DNA from: Geosiphon pyriformis uo1
Lineage: Eukaryota; Fungi; Glomeromycota
Reading direction: 5' to 3'
DNA: 11,173 bases
Assembly (NCBI GenBank): GCA_016748015.1
Contig: JAAOMT010000285.1
Span: forward strand, 1 to 11,173
The notes below the pieces were generated by a model. The model worked only from the letters and a program-made list of their open reading frames with translations. It did no database searches and was not told the origin of the DNA. Shown here piece after piece: positions 1,022 to 10,777 of the stretch (positions are counted from its first letter, which is position 1; each line of letters starts with the position of its first letter). Both the position numbers and the translations under genes were made by a program.

Positions 1022-2480
1022 ATTTTAAGGTTGGTTGTTGGATGGTAATTCAAAGTTGTTTTGGTTGCATCATTGTGGTGGTTGATATCTTTGTGATTGC
1101 TGCTGCTGTTGTTATTAATTGGTGAAATAGTTTTCAACTTTTTTTGTGAGTTGGTCTATTTTCTCTTCAGCTGCTGAGCTGGTTTCTCCAATAGCTAGGT
1201 TGACAAGTTTGGTGTGGTTTGCTTCTTCCATAGCCATTTTATAGTTCTTTATATGTCTAATAGCAGTTGTTAAGTTTTCTGGGGCATATAGACAAACTTT
1301 TTTAATTAATTTGTCCTTTAATTTTGCTATAAACTGATCCAGAATCTGGGCATCAGAATAGTATTCATTGGTTTCCAATTGCCGAATTCATCAAAAAAGT
1401 TTGTTAAATCTTCCCAGATAAGTCATAACAGTTTTAGATGTTTCTTGTTTGATATTGCAAAACCGATTATAAAGAGTAATAGATGTGTTGTTGTCAGTGA
1501 ATTGTTGTAAGAAAGCATCTTTGAATGCTTGCCAGTTTTCAAATGGTTCTTCTAAATTTTCAAACCATTCTTCTGCAGTTTCTTGAAGGAAATATGAGAT
1601 TGCTTTGAGCATTCTTGCTGTATTCCAACCATTTAAATCTCCTGCTTTCTGAATTTTATCAAGCCATTCTTGAGGGCTGGTATTATTGTCTTCACCAGTA
1701 AATTCTGAAATTTTTGCAATATAAGCAGTTGCCATTTCTTCTTCGTTTTCTGTGGTTTTTTTTTGTTTTGATTTAGTTTCTTCACTTTCCAAGTTTTCTG
1801 AATGATTACTTTTGTTTTCTTGTAAGTACTCAATAATATTGGTGCTTGTTGATATAGGTTCTTGCTGTTGAGTAGGATTTCTAGGTGACTGAAAGTCTTC
1901 TAGTCTGGAGAAATGGTTAAGTAGTGAACTTGGTGTTTGTGGTTGAACAAATAAAATTGGAAATGGTGTAATAGTAAGTGGTAATTTAACACTGGTTCTT
2001 TGTTCAGGTGTTTGTAAGTGTTTGGCAGTTGTTTTTGGTAGTATTGGAGTGTTTGGAGTGGTTCTTGAGTATTGTTTCACTTTTTGTTTGCCTTTATTGC
2101 TTGTTTCTGTTTCTGATTCAAAGTCAATAGAGTATTAAGACTGGACTGGATATGTTTCTTCACAATACTTGATAATATTAAAATTGAGTTCCTGAAAGTA
2201 GGTGGCAAGTGTGTTACTGTTAAGATCTTCAGTTCCCAACTGTGAATAGTGCACTAAATTATTGTAAAGGTTGCTTTTCACTTCTGAAATGTTGTAATTT
2301 TCAAAAAGATAATTGTTGATGCAGTTTTCAATATATTGGTATACTGATTTTTTGACAACTTCAATTCCGTCTGGGATGTTGAATCTTTGCTTGCAGTAAG
2401 TGTAAATTAACTGATAATACTCTAGAATTGCTGTGTCTGGTGTGGTCACCACTTTGAATTTGTTGTTGCTGTGTTATTTC

Positions 2481-2495: not shown

Positions 2496-3105
2496 AATGT
2501 TACTAGAAGTTTTTAGTTTTTCTTGAATGTTGTAAATGTTGATTTTGCTGTGAATTCACGTTTCTGGGAAGTAGTTGGATCTTCAATAACTGAATTTATC
2601 TTCAAATTATCTTCTATAATTTGAACTGCTGGGCTTATAAGTAGAATGACCAATTCCTTGCCAGTTACTTTATGTAGTTATGTTGTAGTAAATGTTAACT
2701 TTTTCCCAGAAATTGCTTATCTGGAAGCTCACTAAAATGTGTAGTTCTTTTACTTTAAAAGTCAACTCTTCTACAAGAATCTTGTCTGTAGACTACCCTA
2801 ATGATTGTAATAAAAATAAAAGAAAAATAAAAGAAATGTAAAGGAAATAGAATTCTGTTAAGGAAAACGTTTTCTATTCAGGCCTGAAGTTACTAACAGA
2901 TTACTGAAATTGGTAGCTAATTAATTTCAAAATGTTAGTTGTGTTGAGAGAATTTCAAGTACAATAATCAAAGGATTTGGGTTTTGAATATTTAATTTTT
3001 ATTTAAAATATGTAAAAGGTGATTTGTTTCAATTAAAATATCTAAAGTAGGATACTATAGTAAGATACTATGAGAAGATACATTTTCTTGAAGAGAGAAG
3101 CTCTT

Positions 3106-3113
3106 CTTTTATA
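3106..3113 (-). promoter_or_regulatory. Putative TATA box of LTR A
   Basis: TATAAAAG on the minus strand, at the same relative position as TATATAAAAG in LTR D (10476-10485), just downstream of the phased motif array. Confidence 0.6.
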
Positions 3114-3160
3114 CAACTTGTAATACTAGTTTTTGAACTTGTACTTTTCTCTTTGCTACA

Positions 3161-3253
3161 ATTTGGGTAAACTAAAGATATATTTTGGCGAATTTACAAG
3201 TTATTTTACTGAACTATTGATTATTTCGGCAAATTTTCATTAATTTCGGCGAA
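3161..3253 (-). repeat. Phased array of five 11-bp motifs (consensus ~ATTTYGGCGAA on +) in U3 of LTR A
   Basis: Copies start at 3161, 3182, 3203, 3223 and 3243 (spacing 21, 21, 20, 20). Confidence 0.75.
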
Positions 3254-3462
3254 TTTTGACTATGTTAAAAGGTTCAGAGTATTGTGTAATTTGATTATCT
3301 TAATTTCTAAAATACAAATCGGATTATTGATTAAGTAATGATATTTGATAATTTGATTAAATAATAAGTGATAATCGAATTAATAATAATGTATGCTAAT
3401 TAATAATAGGAATTATAAGGGTAATTTCATGCTAATTAATAGCTAAAATTCTACTAGTAACA

Positions 3463-5030
3463 ATGCTAACCGAAAAAAACTATAGAACATCAGCACTAGA
3501 ACATTTAGCAATTTATTGGGCTGTCATGAAATGGAAGGAATATTTAAGCCAGAAATTTGAGATATATACTGATCACAAAGGATTAACTTCAATTCAGAAG
3601 CAAAAATTTGGAGACAATTGACATGTGAAATAAAAAATAGCACTTTCACTATATACTTTTACAGTACACTATAAAAAGGAAAAAAAAACAGAAATGCTAA
3701 TGGTTTGTTGCAAATAAAACAAATCTGAACATTTCAACCCAAAAATATAATAAAAGATGAATACACAAAAATATTAACAACTCCAGTATTATATAAATAT
3801 TTAACAGTTTAAAAAGAAACAAAACAACATAAAATAACAATTAAAATATTTTATCAACCATCAAAATATACTTTACCAAAAAAACAAAAGAAATCCAAAT
3901 CAACTAATTAGAGTAATTACAGAATCAGAAAAAGAGACAATATTGTTCAACATGCATTTAGATCCAACAGCAAAACATTTTTATAAAGAAACAACCATGA
4001 AAAAAATCAAAAAAAATACTATTGGCCATCAATATATTCAGACATCATTCAATATATTCAAAATTGTGATGCTTATTAGAGAAGAAGAGAAATCAGATCC
4101 AACAAACCATTGAGACCAATCAAAGTGAGACAATTATTTGATCATATTAAGATTGACTTAGTTAGACCATTAACAATAACCAGCAAAGGAAACAGATATA
4201 TTGCAGTAACTATGGATTACCTTACTAAGTGGCCAGAAGCCAAAGCCATTTAAAAAACAGATGCAAAATCTGTTGCCAAATTTGTTCATTAAGATCTAAT
4301 TTGTCAACACAGATGTCCAAAAAAACTACTATTAAATCAAGGAACTTACTTTGTAAACAAAACACTAGCAGAATTAAGTCAAAGATTTAGAATCAAAAAA
4401 CCATTATTATCACTATACAATCCACAAACAAATAGTTTAATTGAAAAATTTAACAGAACATTGTATGAAGCAATTGCCAAAATCAGCCAAGAAAATCAAA
4501 ACAAATAGGATTTATTTATACTATCAGTATTATTTGCTTATCAGACAATAAAACAAAACACTACACAAACAACACTATTTGAATTAATATATGGTAGAAC
4601 AGCAATATTACCAATAGAAATAGAAGTCAGCACATATCTAACTGAACCAATAACAGAAGACAATTTTCAAAAAACATTGTTGAGAAGAACATATAACTTA
4701 ATAGAAACACTAGAAAACAAATAATAAAGCACAGCTAATAATATTCAGAAGTTACAAAAAAAACAATGAAGTGGAAAATTTGACCCCAAATGAGATGAAC
4801 CATTTCACATAAAAGAAATTCTAGAAAATAGAGCTTATAAATTAAGATTGAACAACAAAATCTTAACCAAAGCAGCACATGGAGATTAACTGAAATCATA
4901 TTACAATATAGCATTATCATTTACCAGTAATATTTTACAATTGAAAGTAAAGAGAATACTAGTCCAACCAAATAAGATTTCATGAGATTTAGAACCAATC
5001 ATCATCATTGACACAAACATATCAAATTGA
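3463..5030 (+). pseudogene. pol: pol remnant of element B: C-terminal RNase H plus integrase (HHCC, DDE core, GPY/F region)
   Basis: RNase H 3463-~3720: EKNYRTSALEHLAIYWAVMKWKEYL..FEIYTDHKGL...YTFTVHYK..NRNANGL. Integrase ~3900-5030: MHLDPTAKHF..YYWPSIYSDIIQYIQNCDAY, IDLVRPL..GNRYI..MDYLTKWPEA, LLNQGTYF (catalytic D>N), YNPQTNSLIEKFNRTL, KFDPK*DEPF. Many stops and some frameshifts. Confidence 0.93.
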
Positions 5031-5054
5031 TTGACCAAAAGAATATATAAAGAC

Positions 5055-5705
5055 ATGATAAACATGATAGAAAATATCAAAAAAATAGAAATTATTAACG
5101 AAATTTACTTGCTAGCACAACAACTCTTTTAATTAATTCAACAACAAAATATAGAAATTACTATCAACTATTCGATACAAAGATACCAAAAAAATACCCC
5201 AATACAAAGTACAGAGAAAACCAAAAAACACCATCAACAAAATAATTCTAAAAGTAAAATTGGCAATAGAAGAACCAATAAGTGTTATCTCATATCAAGA
5301 ATTAACCAAAAAAACTTGAAAGTAATGGATACAAGAATTTCTAAAAAACTTTTGTTATTTTCACTTGAAACAATATTTGAATATCTAGAACTTATATATG
5401 AATAAAACAAAGCAATTATTCAATCCAGAAATATTACAACAACTTGAACAATTTGTGAGAAAAAATAATTTAACCACACAAACATGAGCCATCTATTAAT
5501 TACAAGTTGGATTTCAAGACTGACCAGAAATCTTACTCAATTCAACAATAGACTCTATTACCATTAACCAAATAGGAAAATAACCAATGCCCAATTTGAG
5601 GAATTATAAAACAAGATAACACAAGTAATTCTTGAAAAAGAAGTTCAAAAAATACTCAAAGATGGAGAATTAGAATTAAGAGATTTTGACAGAGCTCAAT
5701 ATTAA
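5055..5705 (+). pseudogene. Extra ~220-aa ORF of unknown function between integrase and PPT (element B)
   Basis: Reconstructed: MINMIENIKKIEIINEIYLLAQQLF*LIQQQN...WIQEFLKNFCYFHLKQYLNI*NLYMNKTKQLFNPEILQQLEQFVRKNNL...INQIGK/TNAQFEEL*NKITQVILEKEVQKILKDGELELRDFDRAQY*. It aligns codon by codon with the C copy, with synonymous and conservative changes. Confidence 0.8.
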
Positions 5706-5715
5706 AAGAAGAAAA
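5704..5715 (+). promoter_or_regulatory. Polypurine tract of element B
   Basis: AAAAGAAGAAAA ends 3 nt before the LTR start and overlaps the stop codon of the extra ORF. The same arrangement is seen in C. Confidence 0.75.
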
Positions 5716-5718
5716 TAA

Positions 5719-6603
5719 TATTACTTATAGAATATAAGAAATATATTAGCATATAAATTAACCAATCAGAAGTAGCTGTAGTAAATATGAAATTCTAAGA
5801 TTTTTTTCAAAGAAATTGCAAAATTTTAGGAATTTTAGAATTCTCATACAAAGAATTGCAAAATTCCAGAATTCCAGAATTCTCATACAAAGAATTGCAA
5901 AATTCCAGAATTCCAGAATTCTCCTTAAAAGAATTATAGAATTTTAGATATGAAAAAATGAGAAATTAAGAAATCTTAATTATGTATATATAATAGTAAC
6001 ACTAAAAGCAAAAAAGACAGACTTTTCAGTTTAGATTTTATCTAAGCAATCTTTAAATTTACAAATATCAATAAATAATTATTTGCTATCTCAATCCACT
6101 CTTTACTATCAACACTTTATGTTAATAGTACTATATACTTGACTATACTGAAACAATAGCTCTTGATCATAGCTATTGACAAAATACTAACTTAATTGTT
6201 TTGGCTTATTTTTCTTTATTAAACTTTCTTTTCTTTTATTTTTCTCTTTATTGTTGTATACTAATTGTTTAAAGATTAAGTGCTGAGTTACTGACATTAG
6301 AATATAGCACTGGTAAAAGACCTAGGAATAAAAGTAGACACTCAAATTTGAGGATAGCTTACTAGAAAATTGCTGGCCACCACACCAAGAAAAAAATTAA
6401 TGGAATTGTAATTCTGAGAAGCAACAAACAAAACAAAACAACTTAACTTGAGGGTTAATACTTGAAACATTACTAAAAAAGAATCACATTTGAACTTCTG
6501 TTTATTATACAAAAAATTCTAACCAAAGCTTTCAGATAACCAAAACCTTCAGATCATAACTATTATATTAGCTATTAGTACTAAGTTACAGGTTTGTTAT
6601 TTG
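5719..6603 (+). repeat. 3' LTR of element B (~885 bp; terminal TAACA missing or degenerate)
   Basis: Starts TATTACTTA (probably decayed TGTTAC) after the PPT. CCAAT at 5762, TATATATAA at 5985, AATAAA at ~6068. Colinear with LTR C up to ...TTATTTG (6603). Confidence 0.82.
5837..5923 (+). repeat. Perfect 39-bp tandem repeat (2.2 copies) within a GAATTC-rich U3 array (~5790-5950)
   Basis: AGAATTCTCATACAAAGAATTGCAAAATTCCAGAATTCC starts at 5837 and 5876, with a partial third copy at 5915. A degenerate counterpart is at ~8655-8790. Confidence 0.92.
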
Positions 6604-8030
6604 ATTTAAAACTCCAAATAATCATCTATAATATTGCTTACTACAACTCAAGAACCAGAGCTAACCTCCCAACATGCTCAATAAATAGAATGAAAAATGT
6701 TATAAACAAAATATCTAAAATTACCAAAAACAATACCACCACCAGCCTTAATGAAATGCTTATTAATTTAATAAAGAAGGTACCAGCCAGAAAAGAAAGC
6801 AGATTCCATGAATGCATTAGTGGCTTTATTGTCTAATATACTTGAATGTCTCTTCACTTTATGTCAGCTAACTTTCAAATTTCTATTATAAATAGCACCC
6901 ACAATATGGTAATGTTTAATCCAATACTGGTTCTGAAAATTCAGACACAACAAACTCAATTCTGATTTATAAGTATTTAAAGCAGCCTAATTGTCTAAGA
7001 AGAAATAAACCAAACTGGAAGGCAGTATACACTCAAGTGCCAGCATAATAGCTTGCAACTCTGTCATAGTTGAAGACACTAAACCAGAAATTCTAACACC
7101 CAAACCCAAACCAATATCTTTAAAAAAAGCAGCTGTACCAGTCCTCATATCAATAGTTTCTAAACCACAAAGAAACCCATCCATATAGACAGAGAGAGGA
7201 CTAGCATTAACATTCAACAAATGGTTACAAATGACTTTAAACTCACTAGAATCAAGAATGTTTAACAAACTAGTGTTCTTAAGAAGAAAAAAACTAGCAG
7301 AAAAAAAAGCCAAACTACTGAGAAAACAAACAGAAAGATCGAACTATTCAAAAACAGAGCCATGTGAATCCAATTTCTTCTACTACTTAAATGTTTTCCA
7401 ATTAAAAACCATATCATTTCAGTCATAAAGCTGTTTTACAAAAGCTATTCTATACTGTCATAGCAAAGAAACACACTTATAAAATTTCAACACACCAAAA
7501 ACAAAAAACATAGAAGTACCACTCCAAAAATAAAAAGCATTAGTTATAAAACTATTCAAAAACAGATTACACTTCAGAAAAATGCAGACTATCCCAGCTA
7601 AAAAATTGTTCAAAAGATTAACACCCATACAAACTGGAAAGAGCACGAAATAATATGGAGGCCAGTTGAAAACCTGAAAATTATGTAATCTATGAGCAAA
7701 AAAATGGCCCCAAACTCCAATAAAATTAACAAAACAAACAATAGAAGCCAATTTGTTCTTAGTCTAAATTTGTTTAAAAGATTTTAAATCATTTAAAAAA
7801 AAGTGATGGAGTGCATTATTAGAAAAATTGGAAAGAAAACCAGATTTAGATTTCAAATTTTTGTGAATCAAAATGTCTTACTTATTATACAAACTAATAG
7901 AAATAAAACTGAATTAAGTCTTATAACTGATAATTAGATGAAGAACTGCTGAAACCAAATACAAAAATTGTTTGTTAGAGACTATCTTCCTCAAAACCAA
8001 ATTGGCAAAAAACTGGATATCTGAATATAC
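6604..8030 (-). mobile_element. Non-LTR retrotransposon (LINE) ORF2 fragment: post-RT region plus RNase H, pseudogenised
   Basis: Minus-strand coding remnant: SDIQFFANLVLRK..KQFLYLVSAVLH.IISYKT.., then RNase H SVYMDG...SSTMTELQAIMLAL...FLDN*AAL...VS*HKVKRHSSILDNKATNA (degenerate YTDGS / AELxA / SDS / HKVKGHSG..GNE.AD). This HVKGH-containing RNase H type is typical of non-LTR elements. The fragment has no LTRs of its own. Confidence 0.82.
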
Positions 8031-8857
8031 TGTTACAGATAATTATTTGCATAATTTGGTGCTAATTTACTCGATGATATTGGTAATATCTGAAGGTTTT
8101 GGTAATCTGAAAGTTTTAAGTTAGAGTTTTTTGTTTAATGAACAGAAATTAAATGGTGTACAATTCTTTAGTAGTAAGTCTTCCAATTTTTTTCTTTAAC
8201 TTAGTGGCCAGTTTATTCTGCCAGTCATGTCTTTCTGGTAAGCTATCCAATTTTCACTTTGTACCTTTCTATTTGGGTCTTTTACCAGACTATCTGTGAC
8301 ATTAATAACTCAATACTTAATTTTTAATTAATTAATCAACAACAAAAATAACAAAAAAAAAGAAAATAAAAATAAAAGAAAATAAAAAAATAAGCCAAAA
8401 TGATAAATGTTAGTATTCTATCAATAGCTGTAATCAAGAGCTATTGTTCTAGTGTGATTAAGTATTGGCCACTATTAACATAAAGTATTGATAGTGTAGA
8501 GTAGATTGAGATGGCAAATAATTATTTATTAATATTTGTGAATTAAAAGGTTGCTTAGATAAAATCTAAACTAAAAGGTCTAACTTTTTTACTTCTAATG
8601 CTACTGCTATATATACATATTTGAGGTTTTTCAATTCTTCTATTCTTCCTGTCAGGAATTCTGGAATTTCTAGAATCTTGTAATTTCTCGAAAGAAATTC
8701 TGAAATTTTGGAATCCTGTGATTTCTTATATAAGAATCCTGTAATTCTTGGAATTCTACAATTCCTCTGAAAAAAATCCTAGAATTCCCTCTTTTATTAT
8801 GTCTATTTCTGATTGGCTAATATATACTACTATAATTTTTATCTTTTATGAGTAATA
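8031..8857 (-). repeat. 3' LTR of element C (827 bp)
   Basis: Minus strand TATTACTCA...ATCTGTAACA. CCAAT (8812-8816), GAATTC-rich array and TATA-like element (~8608-8617) occur in the same order as in LTR B. Confidence 0.88.
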
Positions 8858-8860
8858 TTA

Positions 8861-8872
8861 TTCTCTCTTTTT
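8861..8872 (-). promoter_or_regulatory. Polypurine tract of element C
   Basis: AAAAAGAGAGAA, 3 nt before the LTR start. Confidence 0.78.
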
Positions 8873-9533
8873 AATATTGAGCTCTATTGAAATTCTTGAA
8901 CTCTTCTAATTCTCCTTTTTTGATTATTTCTTGAACTTCTTTTTCAAGAATCACTTGTGTTATTTTGGTTTGTAATTTTTCAAATTGGGCATTGGTCATT
9001 TTACCTATTTGATTAGTAGTAACTGTGTTTATTACTGTGTTAAATAGTATTTCTGGTCAGTCTTAAAATTCAGTCTGTAATTAATAGATGGCTCTTGCTT
9101 GTATTGTTAGATTGTTTTTTTTCACAAATTGCTCAAGATGTTATAGTATTGTTGTATTAAATAATTATTTTGTTTTATTTATATATAAATTCTGAATATT
9201 CAAATATTGTTCCAAATAGAAATAACAAAAGTTTCTTGGAAATTGTTGTATCCATTAATTCATGTTTTTATTATCATCTCTTAATATGGTACACCTTTTG
9301 TTTGTATTTTTATTGCTGCTTTTACTTTCATTATTACCTTGTTAATAATGTTTTCTGGTTTTTTTTGTTCTTTGCATTGAGGTCTCTTTTTTGTATTTTT
9401 GTATCAAATGATTTGTTGGTTAATAGTAATTTTCATATTTTGTTGTTGAATCAGTTGGAAGAGTTGTTGTGTCAGTGTGTATATTTTGTTAGTAATTTCT
9501 ATTTTTTTGGTATTTTTTTGTTACATATATCAT
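8871..9533 (-). pseudogene. Extra ~220-aa ORF of unknown function (element C copy)
   Basis: ..KKIEITNKIYTLTQQLFQLIQQQNMKITINQQII...WIQQFPRNFCYFYLEQYLNIQNLYINKTK*LFNTTIL*HLEQFVKKNNL...TNQIGKMTNAQFEKLQTKITQVILEKEVQEIIKKGELEEFKNFNRAQY*. Homologous to 5055-5705. Confidence 0.8.
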
Positions 9534-9556
9534 GTCTTATATACTCTTTTGGTTGT

Positions 9557-10088
9557 TTAATTTGATGTGTTTGGTTTAATAATTATAATTGGTTCCAGAT
9601 TTCATGAAATCTTATCTGGTAGACTAGTATTTGTTGTACTTCTAGTTGTGAAATATTATTGGTGAATGATGATATTATAGAGTGATATGGTTTCAGTTGA
9701 TTACTATGTGCTGCTTTGGCTAATATTTTGTTGTCTCATCTTAATTTATAAGCTTTATTTTCTAGAATTTCTTCTATGTGAAATGGTCCATCCTAATTGG
9801 GATCAAATATTTTACTCCTTTGTTTTTCTGCTTTGGTATAATGTAAAAATACTTTGTTTCCAATCCTGAATTCAACTGGTTTATCTAGTAGTTGGTTATT
9901 ATGTCTTTCTTTTTGTTTTTCTTGTGACTTTTCAATATTATCAGCTGCTCTTCACTATTTGTTTTCTAGTGTTTCTATTATGTCATATGTTCTTCTCAAC
10001 AATGGTTTTTAGAAATTGTCTTCTGTTATTGGTTTAGTTGAATATGTGTTGACTTTTATTTTAACTGGTAATGTTGCTGTTTTACTGT
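9557..10088 (-). pseudogene. pol: Integrase C-terminal part of element C (GPY/F region), truncated by element D
   Basis: SKTATLPVKIKV..PITEDNF...QEKQKERHNNQL..PVEFRIGNKVFL..FDPN*DGPFHIEEILENKAYKL...DLEPIIIIKPNTSN*. Matches B ~4590-5030. Confidence 0.9.
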
Positions 10089-10315
10089 TGTTACCAAACG
10101 AAATTAGAGATATCATTTAGCATGAAACTATCTTATAATTCCTATCATTAATTAGCATATATTATCATTCAAATTATCACTTATTACATTAACAAAAAAA
10201 AAAAAAAATGTCCAAAATTATCATTTAATTAATAACCCAAATTGTACACAACACAAATGTAACCTAATTGTGATATTCAATCATGTAATACCCCAAACTA
10301 TGTAACATTCAAAAG

Positions 10316-10427
10316 TTCATCAAAATTTATAGAAATTTACCGAAATAATTGATAGTTCACCAAAATATCTAATAGTTTGCAGAAATAACTTGTAGTTTGC
10401 GAAAATGTATCTTTAGTTCAGCAAAAT
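10316..10427 (+). repeat. Phased array of six 11-bp motifs (consensus ~TTYRCCRAAAT) in U3 of LTR D
   Basis: Copies start at 10316, 10336, 10356, 10376, 10396 and 10417 (spacing 20, 20, 20, 20, 21). Confidence 0.75.
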
Positions 10428-10777
10428 TATAGAAAATAGCAAAGTTCAAGTTCATAGAATAGTGTTATGACAAGTTATATAAAAGAAGAGCTTCTCTTTT
10501 CGAGAAAATGTATCTTACTTTAGATTTATCACTTGGAACTATTCCTACACACAAAAAGAAATAAATATCAAATAATTTGAAAAACCAAATTCTTTAATTA
10601 TTGTACTTAAAAAATCTCCAAAACCCAACTAACATTTCGAAATTGATTAGCTACCAATTTCAGTAAAACTGTTAGTGACTCCAGGCCTGAATAGAAAACG
10701 TTTTCCTTGATAAAATTCTATTTCTTTTACATTTCTTTTATTTTCTTTTATTTTCTTATCATAATTATTAGGGTAAC

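What the first reader, a model, noticed from the sequence alone, without database searches (positions are those of the whole stretch)
5031..5705. Conserved unknown ~220-aa protein in the 'env position' of a Ty3/gypsy family, in frame with integrase (copies 5055-5705 + and 8871-9533 -)
Seen: both B and C carry ~660 bp between the integrase stop and the PPT that translate, once stops and 1-8-bp indels are repaired, to the same protein ending in F(D/N)RAQY*. The final stop overlaps the PPT. Differences look like those of a selected coding sequence: synonymous (ATC/ATA, TTA/CTA, AAT/AAC, ACC/ACT, GGA/GGT) and conservative (QE/QQ, VRKNN/VKKNN, FEEL/FEKL). Blocks such as NFCYF.L.QYLNI.NLY.NKTK and NQIGK.TNAQFE.L..KITQVILEKEVQ are nearly invariant. 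In both copies the ORF is in frame with integrase, behind one stop (TGA 5028-5030 in B, TAA 9557-9559 in C). I see no signal peptide, transmembrane helix or chromodomain, so it resembles neither Env nor a chromovirus tail. Inference: an uncharacterised accessory protein, expressed separately, by readthrough, or as an integrase C-terminal extension if the stop is a decayed CGA/CAA. It could act in targeting or anti-silencing. The ORF track does not show it.
Basis: partly seen in the sequence, partly recalled or inferred. Interest (0 to 1): 0.8.

Follow-up and report, generated by a model that had tools for sequence, protein, structure and literature searches.

The report
Third gene of Geosiphon retrotransposons
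A high-copy jumping-gene lineage in the fungus Geosiphon carries, behind its integrase and a true stop codon, a conserved third gene for a small protein that matched no known family or fold in my searches, and that protein likely helps the element regulate itself or cope with host silencing.

Summary
The ORF is real. Copies B (5055-5705, +) and C (8871-9533, -) are dead: 8 stops each plus frameshifts. An ungapped 209-aa model from another locus (P0077) shows the whole protein. Relatives form four groups only 30-45% identical but colinear, each with a Met at nearly the same N-terminal place. Every named hit is a Geosiphon pyriformis gene model. Transversion-only pN/pS between B and C is 0.34 (p about 0.01).

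TGA/TAA is the family codon, two other copies' integrases end there, and no model crosses the junction in frame. The ORF lies outside the LTR (5719-6590), and its stop overlaps the PPT.

The protein has no transmembrane or signal stretch, no Pfam, PHROG, PDB or Atlas hit, and two moderate-confidence helical models found no fold match. A TATATAA 41 nt before the shared Met hints at an internal promoter (about 5% by chance). Function is inferred only.

Extra ORFs after pol are a known kind; this family appears undescribed. The scan noted other third genes in fungal gypsy elements on other DNA, with no sequence match to this one.

The parts
3436..3621 (+). RNase H fragment of copy B pol
   Evidence: Pfam RT_RNaseH E 6e-12
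3838..5030 (+). Decayed integrase of copy B (H2C2, core, SH3-type C-terminal module; no chromodomain hit), ending in the true stop TGA 5028-5030
   Evidence: Weak Pfam Integrase_H2C2 and rve_3 hits; SH3_Tf2-1 in relatives P0075/P0076, which match 4758-5027 at 72-73% and end at the same codon; codon variants
5044..5050 (+). TATATAA in the 24-nt spacer, a candidate internal promoter (inferred); also at 9543 in C, and the same word as the LTR TATA at 5987
   Evidence: about 5% chance for a 55-nt stretch in shuffles
5055..5705 (+). ORF3 of copy B, dead (8 stops, 2 frameshifts). First Met 5055; second, cross-group Met position 5085 (ATA here)
5704..5715 (+). Polypurine tract of B, overlapping the ORF3 stop
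   Evidence: sequence
5719..6590 (+). 3' LTR of B (872 bp; the family majority has G at 5720, giving TG...CA ends with a 7-of-8 inverted match). ORF3 lies outside it
   Evidence: (5720 A>G in 63% of depth; 20 contigs with varied flanks before 5721)
8050..8857 (-). 3' LTR of copy C (far end approximate)
8861..8872 (-). Polypurine tract of C, overlapping the ORF3 stop
8871..9533 (-). ORF3 of copy C, dead (8 stops after 9502, one frameshift in the body, one compensated indel pair at the start)
9557..10085 (-). 3' part of the integrase of copy C, ending in TAA 9559-9557

Best explanation
This Ty3/gypsy lineage carries a conserved third gene between a true integrase stop and the polypurine tract; it is likely translated on its own from a short subgenomic message into a soluble, predicted-helical 209-219-aa protein that likely acts in trans on the element's own DNA or RNA to keep it expressed against host silencing. 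Shown here: the ORF, its place outside the LTR, the true stop, the four divergent groups, purifying selection, and the lack of membrane stretches. Inferred: its own start at the Met shared by the groups (5085 position), the subgenomic message (internal TATATAA promoter, or splicing from the 5' LTR), and the regulatory role, which rests on analogy alone. Copies B and C are dead through C>T/G>A decay.
For: Coding: intact 209-aa model P0077, and 16 of 150 group-I-like models with 150 or more aligned residues and no gap of 6 or more. Four groups 30-45% identical, each on a strongly supported branch; 24 of 172 columns share the majority residue in all four, 45 more share the class. Transversion pN/pS 0.34, 9 synonymous of 32, p about 0.01; shifted frames 0.72 and 4.3; LTR frames 1.0-2.9. 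Family majority letters give sense codons at four of B's stops (5130, 5319, 5386, 5607).

Separate protein: junction codon TGA/TAA in the family; P0075 and P0076 end there; none of 184 ORF3-bearing models crosses the junction in frame, though 8 carry integrase sequence joined further in. Met at about the same place in all four groups; residue 11 is Met in 24 of 31 models that start at the first Met.

Soluble: best 19-residue hydropathy 0.27-1.18 and 0-2 Cys in five representatives.

Host-facing hint: between groups IV and I the integrase C-terminal module is 67-68% identical but ORF3 only 29-40%. A related AM fungus methylates transposons and has RNAi (bioRxiv 10.1101/2021.03.30.436303, passages). 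Precedents: foamy virus tas/bet, made from an internal promoter before the 3' LTR (PMC8003144, passages); Cer1 CERV, which exports genomic RNA (PMC10309623, abstract).
Against: Nothing here tests function or expression. Faster change than integrase fits relaxed constraint or any accessory role equally well. The protein is only mildly basic (pI 6.5-9.3) and shows no nucleic-acid-binding motif that a library recognised. The TATATAA is a 5% chance event in AT-rich DNA, B and C share it by descent, and it could not be checked in groups II-IV (no DNA). The first Met (5055) lies too close behind it to be used from such a promoter, yet 31 models start there. Gene predictors must start at an ATG, which inflates the Met coincidence, and groups II and IV rest on 2 and 1 models with an N-terminus. 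The selection test uses one pair of copies: transitions gave pN/pS 0.73 (p 0.09), a shifted frame scored lower on transitions (0.53, p 0.003), and the integrase control was itself not significant (0.57, p 0.24). Position 5028 lay at the edge of what could list, so a minority CGA is less firmly excluded than TGG. Searches were length-limited, so long pol-ORF3 fusions could show only.
Confidence: 0.42

Rival explanations
1. ORF3 is a separate protein that would work inside the particle or the integration complex, as a structural partner of Gag or an integrase targeting cofactor in a lineage that lacks a chromodomain.
For: Separate soluble protein with conserved surface-type polar residues (N102, K129, N131, N164, N171, Q173 in P0077 numbering). 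No chromodomain hit in the integrase tail. Kept in four groups.
Against: It diverges much faster than the integrase beside it. No fold likeness to capsid or reader domains appeared in the searches, which is inconclusive.
Confidence: 0.28
2. ORF3 is a captured or de novo gene that was once useful and is now carried as a passenger without a current role in transposition.
For: No relative found outside Geosiphon. Two contigs skip 5069-5720, that is nearly the whole ORF. Most copies are broken.
Against: The frame and length are held across four groups at 30-45% identity, and selection is still visible between B and C inside group I. Breakage affects the integrase in the same way.
Confidence: 0.12
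3. ORF3 would be made by stop-codon readthrough as a low-level C-terminal extension of integrase.
For: It is in frame behind one stop in B, and in the body of C. The 8 spacer codons hold no stop in B.
Against: In-frame by chance is 1 in 3. The groups have their own Met. The base after the stop is T in B and in most contigs, not the C of the leaky UGA-C context (recalled). Frame in groups II-IV is unknown.
Confidence: 0.1
4. ORF3 is an Env-like membrane protein for spread between cells.
For: Position between pol and the 3' LTR only.
Against: No hydrophobic stretch (best 19-residue mean 1.18), no signal-like N-terminus, 0-2 Cys, no conserved furin-type site in five representatives.
Confidence: 0.04
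5. The stretch is non-coding and the shared translation only reflects DNA similarity of two copies.
For: B and C are no more alike here (80%) than in the LTR (78%); three stops fall on the same codons in both.
Against: An intact 209-aa ORF exists; four divergent groups keep the protein; the shared stops fall on W, R or Q codons of the models, the usual decay targets.
Confidence: 0.02

Closest known systems
Sense additional ORFs between pol and the 3' LTR (aORF-3S) of plant LTR retrotransposons, e.g. Athila, Bagy2 (PMC7264820; first third of the text read)
   Same: Same place and strand, present in most copies of a family, no likeness to host genes
   Different: Those described as env-like often have transmembrane domains; this one has none, and its host is a Glomeromycotan fungus
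'add. ORF' of unknown function in fungal Gypsy elements (Novikova et al. 2010, PMC2864245; passages, a figure legend)
   Same: Fungal Ty3/gypsy element with an extra ORF of unknown function
   Different: No sequence comparison was possible; the passages seen name no Geosiphon element; supplements not opened
Bdelloid rotifer ORF3s (PMC5408684; passages)
   Same: Family-specific ORF3s, some 210-230 aa, described as separate transcription units
   Different: Those are transmembrane, coiled-coil, GDSL or DEDDy proteins; none of these families was hit here
Foamy virus Tas/Bet (PMC8003144; passages) and C. elegans Cer1 CERV (PMC10309623; abstract)
   Same: Soluble orphan proteins of LTR retroelements that act on the element's own expression; tas/bet lie before the 3' LTR under an internal promoter
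   Different: Functional analogy only; no sequence or fold match appeared, and no function was tested here

Membership tests
Ty3/gypsy LTR retrotransposon (host element) | RNase H followed by integrase, then PPT and a TG...CA LTR | tested here: met
Ty3/gypsy LTR retrotransposon (host element) | Reverse transcriptase phylogeny and own gag | not tested
   B and C are cut before RT in this window; no genome held
aORF-3S / ORF3 class | Sense ORF between pol stop and 3' LTR, outside the LTR | tested here: met
aORF-3S / ORF3 class | Conserved across copies and under selection | tested here: met
aORF-3S / ORF3 class | Expressed from a subgenomic message | not testable with these tools
   no RNA run available for laying
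Env / env-like glycoprotein | Signal peptide and transmembrane anchor | tested here: not met
   hydropathy of five representatives, (Kyte-Doolittle only, no dedicated predictor)
Env / env-like glycoprotein | Conserved cysteines and furin-type site | tested here: not met
   0-2 Cys; R.[KR]R in 0 of 5, R..R in 1 of 5
Chromovirus integrase tail | Chromodomain fused to integrase | tested here: not met
   integrase ends at the stop after an SH3_Tf2-1-like module; no Chromo hit in P0075, P0076, P0077
Integrase C-terminal extension | Sense codon at the junction in family members | tested here: not met
   position 5028 tested only at the edge of the listing range
Enzymatic ORF3s (GDSL, DEDDy, 2OG oxygenase) | Domain or fold match | tested here: inconclusive
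   no Pfam hit and no fold above Z 3.9, but the models are of moderate confidence
Tas/Bet- or CERV-like regulators | Acts in trans on the element's transcription or RNA export | not testable with these tools
   needs experiments

The most novel reading that the evidence does not exclude
An old Ty3/gypsy clade that helped fill 41% of the Geosiphon genome with LTR sequence owes its success to a third gene with a new fold, made from an internal promoter as in foamy viruses, whose product shields the element from methylation or RNAi: a first anti-silencing protein of a fungal retrotransposon.
Probability: 0.15. Interest if true: 0.85.

Novelty: new variant of a known kind. Interest (0 to 1): 0.52.

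Why it matters
What non-Env third ORFs of LTR retrotransposons do is an open question. This one is small and soluble, survives intact in at least one copy, and is held across four divergent groups, so it can be expressed and solved. It belongs to a high-copy family in a fungus whose genome is 41.2% LTR sequence (PMC11952901, passage). It also explains well over 150 'hypothetical proteins' of the G. pyriformis annotation as pieces of one transposon gene (184 models hit).

Tried and rejected
No whole genome is held, so no copy census or multi-copy dN/dS was possible.

No RNA holder was listed; this says nothing about expression. Runs X2 and X3 laid nothing.

Family searches of ORF3 models gave nothing at a curated cut-off: Pfam (P0077 had 0 families at E up to 1), PHROGs best E 0.005, PDB sequences best E 0.08 and 0.26, ESM Atlas no usable hit twice.

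Two AlphaFold2 models (pLDDT 72 and 68, pTM 0.62 and 0.59) agree on an N-terminal helix plus hairpin, a loose linker and a helical core. Single domains were not folded apart, so a new fold is not shown.

Homodimer prediction: no answer.

Locus scans with P0077 found no relative in viral contigs or metagenome contigs; genome contigs was not scanned.

Idea rejected: B and C as tandem arrays, or ORF3 inside the LTR. The B-C likeness past 6296 and the shared downstream exons of many models are explained by an LTR that runs from 5719 to 6590.

Not found in print: searches listed no paper on this ORF. The original Geosiphon genome papers and repeat libraries were not seen, and no supplements were opened; a repeat library could hold the sequence unannotated.

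Full report
Observation. Copies B (+) and C (-) align through integrase, the 675-nt stretch and the LTR, at 83%, 80% and 78% identity. The junction codons are TGA 5028-5030 and TAA 9559-9557. The final TAA starts a 12-nt purine run, and the LTR begins at 5719. B has 8 internal stops and 2 frameshifts; C has 8 stops after 9502, one frameshift and a compensated indel pair that puts its ATG 9533 out of frame.

Host and family. All 8 hits and all 120 listed hits (167 found, 47 not listed) are Geosiphon pyriformis gene models. A phmmer search of 1.84 billion representatives gave 64 hits. Of these, 38 could be named and all are G. pyriformis; the 26 unnamed are 54-72% identical to the query. One DNA run laid 5685 contigs on 4860-5760, so the family is high-copy, though depth is no copy count. 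LTR elements cover 41.2% of this genome (PMC11952901, passage).

It is a real gene. P0077 is an ungapped 209-aa model that covers the ORF from the second Met to the end; 16 of 150 group-I-like models align for 150 residues or more without a gap of 6 or more. Relatives fall into four groups, 30-45% identical between representatives. In a 23-row tree (a subset chosen for length) groups II-IV each have 100% bootstrap and the 13 group I rows 99%. The groups are colinear; 24 of 172 columns share the majority residue in all four and 45 more share its class. Between B and C, 9 of 32 transversions are synonymous (pN/pS 0.34, p about 0.01), while shifted frames give 0.72 and 4.3 and LTR frames 1.0-2.9. 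Transitions, which carry the decay, give 0.73 (p 0.09); one shifted frame gives 0.53 on transitions, and the integrase control (0.57, 18 transversions) is not significant. The DNA test is therefore modest, and the protein groups are the stronger evidence. The family's majority letters give sense codons at four of B's stops among the 40 of 343 rows shown.

It is not an integrase extension. In 342 contigs laid on 4998-5096, the only listed variant of the junction codon is G>A at 5029 (18% of depth); no A>G at 5030 reaches 5%. Position 5028 was at the edge of the listing range, so CGA is less firmly tested, but B and C both have T there. Models P0075 and P0076, from other loci, end at this codon. 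Of 184 models with an ORF3 hit, 14 have more than 25 residues in front; 8 carry integrase sequence joined further into ORF3 or out of frame, and none crosses the junction in frame. Two of the four protein searches were length-limited and could not show long fusions.

Start and expression (inferred). Group I has Mets at 5055 and 5085; residue 11 is Met in 24 of 31 models that begin at the first. Groups II (2 models), III (about 13) and IV (1) begin with Met at or within two residues of the second. Predictors favour ATG starts, so this is suggestive. TATATAA lies at 5044 in B and 9543 in C, 41 nt before the second Met, and is the same word as the LTR TATA at 5987; shuffles give about 5% for such a stretch. 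An internal promoter would parallel foamy virus tas/bet (PMC8003144, passages). Splicing is the more usual route for ORF3s (PMC5408684, passage) and is not excluded. No expression data were available.

Place. The LTR of B runs 5719-6590 with TG...CA ends and a 7-of-8 inverted match; 20 contigs have varied flanks before 5721. ORF3 is thus outside the LTR, and B and C are ordinary 3' ends facing each other across a fragment of another element (6630-8060).

Protein. Five representatives have no hydrophobic stretch (best 19-residue mean 0.27-1.18), 0-2 Cys and pI 6.5-9.3. Two AlphaFold2 models of different groups agree on a helix-hairpin N-terminus, a loose linker and a helical core. Sequence, profile, language-model and fold searches found nothing usable; with models of pLDDT about 70 this does not prove a new fold. 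ORF3 diverges much faster than the integrase module beside it: 29-40% against 67-68% between groups IV and I.

Mechanism. Coding and separate from integrase: about 0.85-0.9. For the role I commit to a trans-acting regulator of the element's own expression against host silencing (0.42 overall). The grounds are solubility, no recognised enzyme motif, fast divergence, heavy C>T/G>A decay of the copies, methylation and RNAi of transposons in a related AM fungus (bioRxiv 10.1101/2021.03.30.436303, passages), and the precedents Tas/Bet and CERV (PMC10309623, abstract). A particle or integration cofactor is the main rival (0.28). None of this is tested.

Novelty. Extra sense ORFs between pol and the 3' LTR are a known kind (PMC7264820, first third read; PMC2864245 and PMC5408684, passages). 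This protein family was not found in any library, nor in seven literature searches. The scan's own notes hold other fungal third genes on other DNA but no sequence match. Verdict: new variant of a known kind, interest 0.52.

Noticed in passing
window 2135-2473 (-): A second gypsy family (LTR-like 2814-3420 on -, and 10130-10750 on +) has a 112-aa open stretch in frame upstream of its gag core, with no Pfam hit; part of it recurs in model P0017. It may be an unusual Gag N-terminal domain.
   Followed up: no
window 5760-5950 (+) and 8570-8800 (-): The U3 part of the B/C LTR holds a 39-nt tandem repeat (3-4 copies), a candidate enhancer array or binding site for ORF3.
   Followed up: no
window 5069-5720: Two contigs of run X1 skip almost exactly the whole ORF3 and PPT (joint 5068 to 5721): possible deletion derivatives.
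   Followed up: no
window 6630-8060 (-): B and C end tail to tail on a fragment of another element that matches long Geosiphon models (P0027, P0188). I read it as LINE-like from recall; Pfam did not hit the window ORF 6987-7343.
   Followed up: partly
protein clusters P0093, P0134: Group III models are about 95% identical to each other and share one downstream exon, so group III looks young and is the best place to seek intact full-length elements.
   Followed up: partly
G. pyriformis annotation (P0001-P0188): Many hypothetical proteins are chimeric models that stitch ORF3 to LTR, gag or LINE-like pieces (48 of 184 with a long downstream part).
   Followed up: partly
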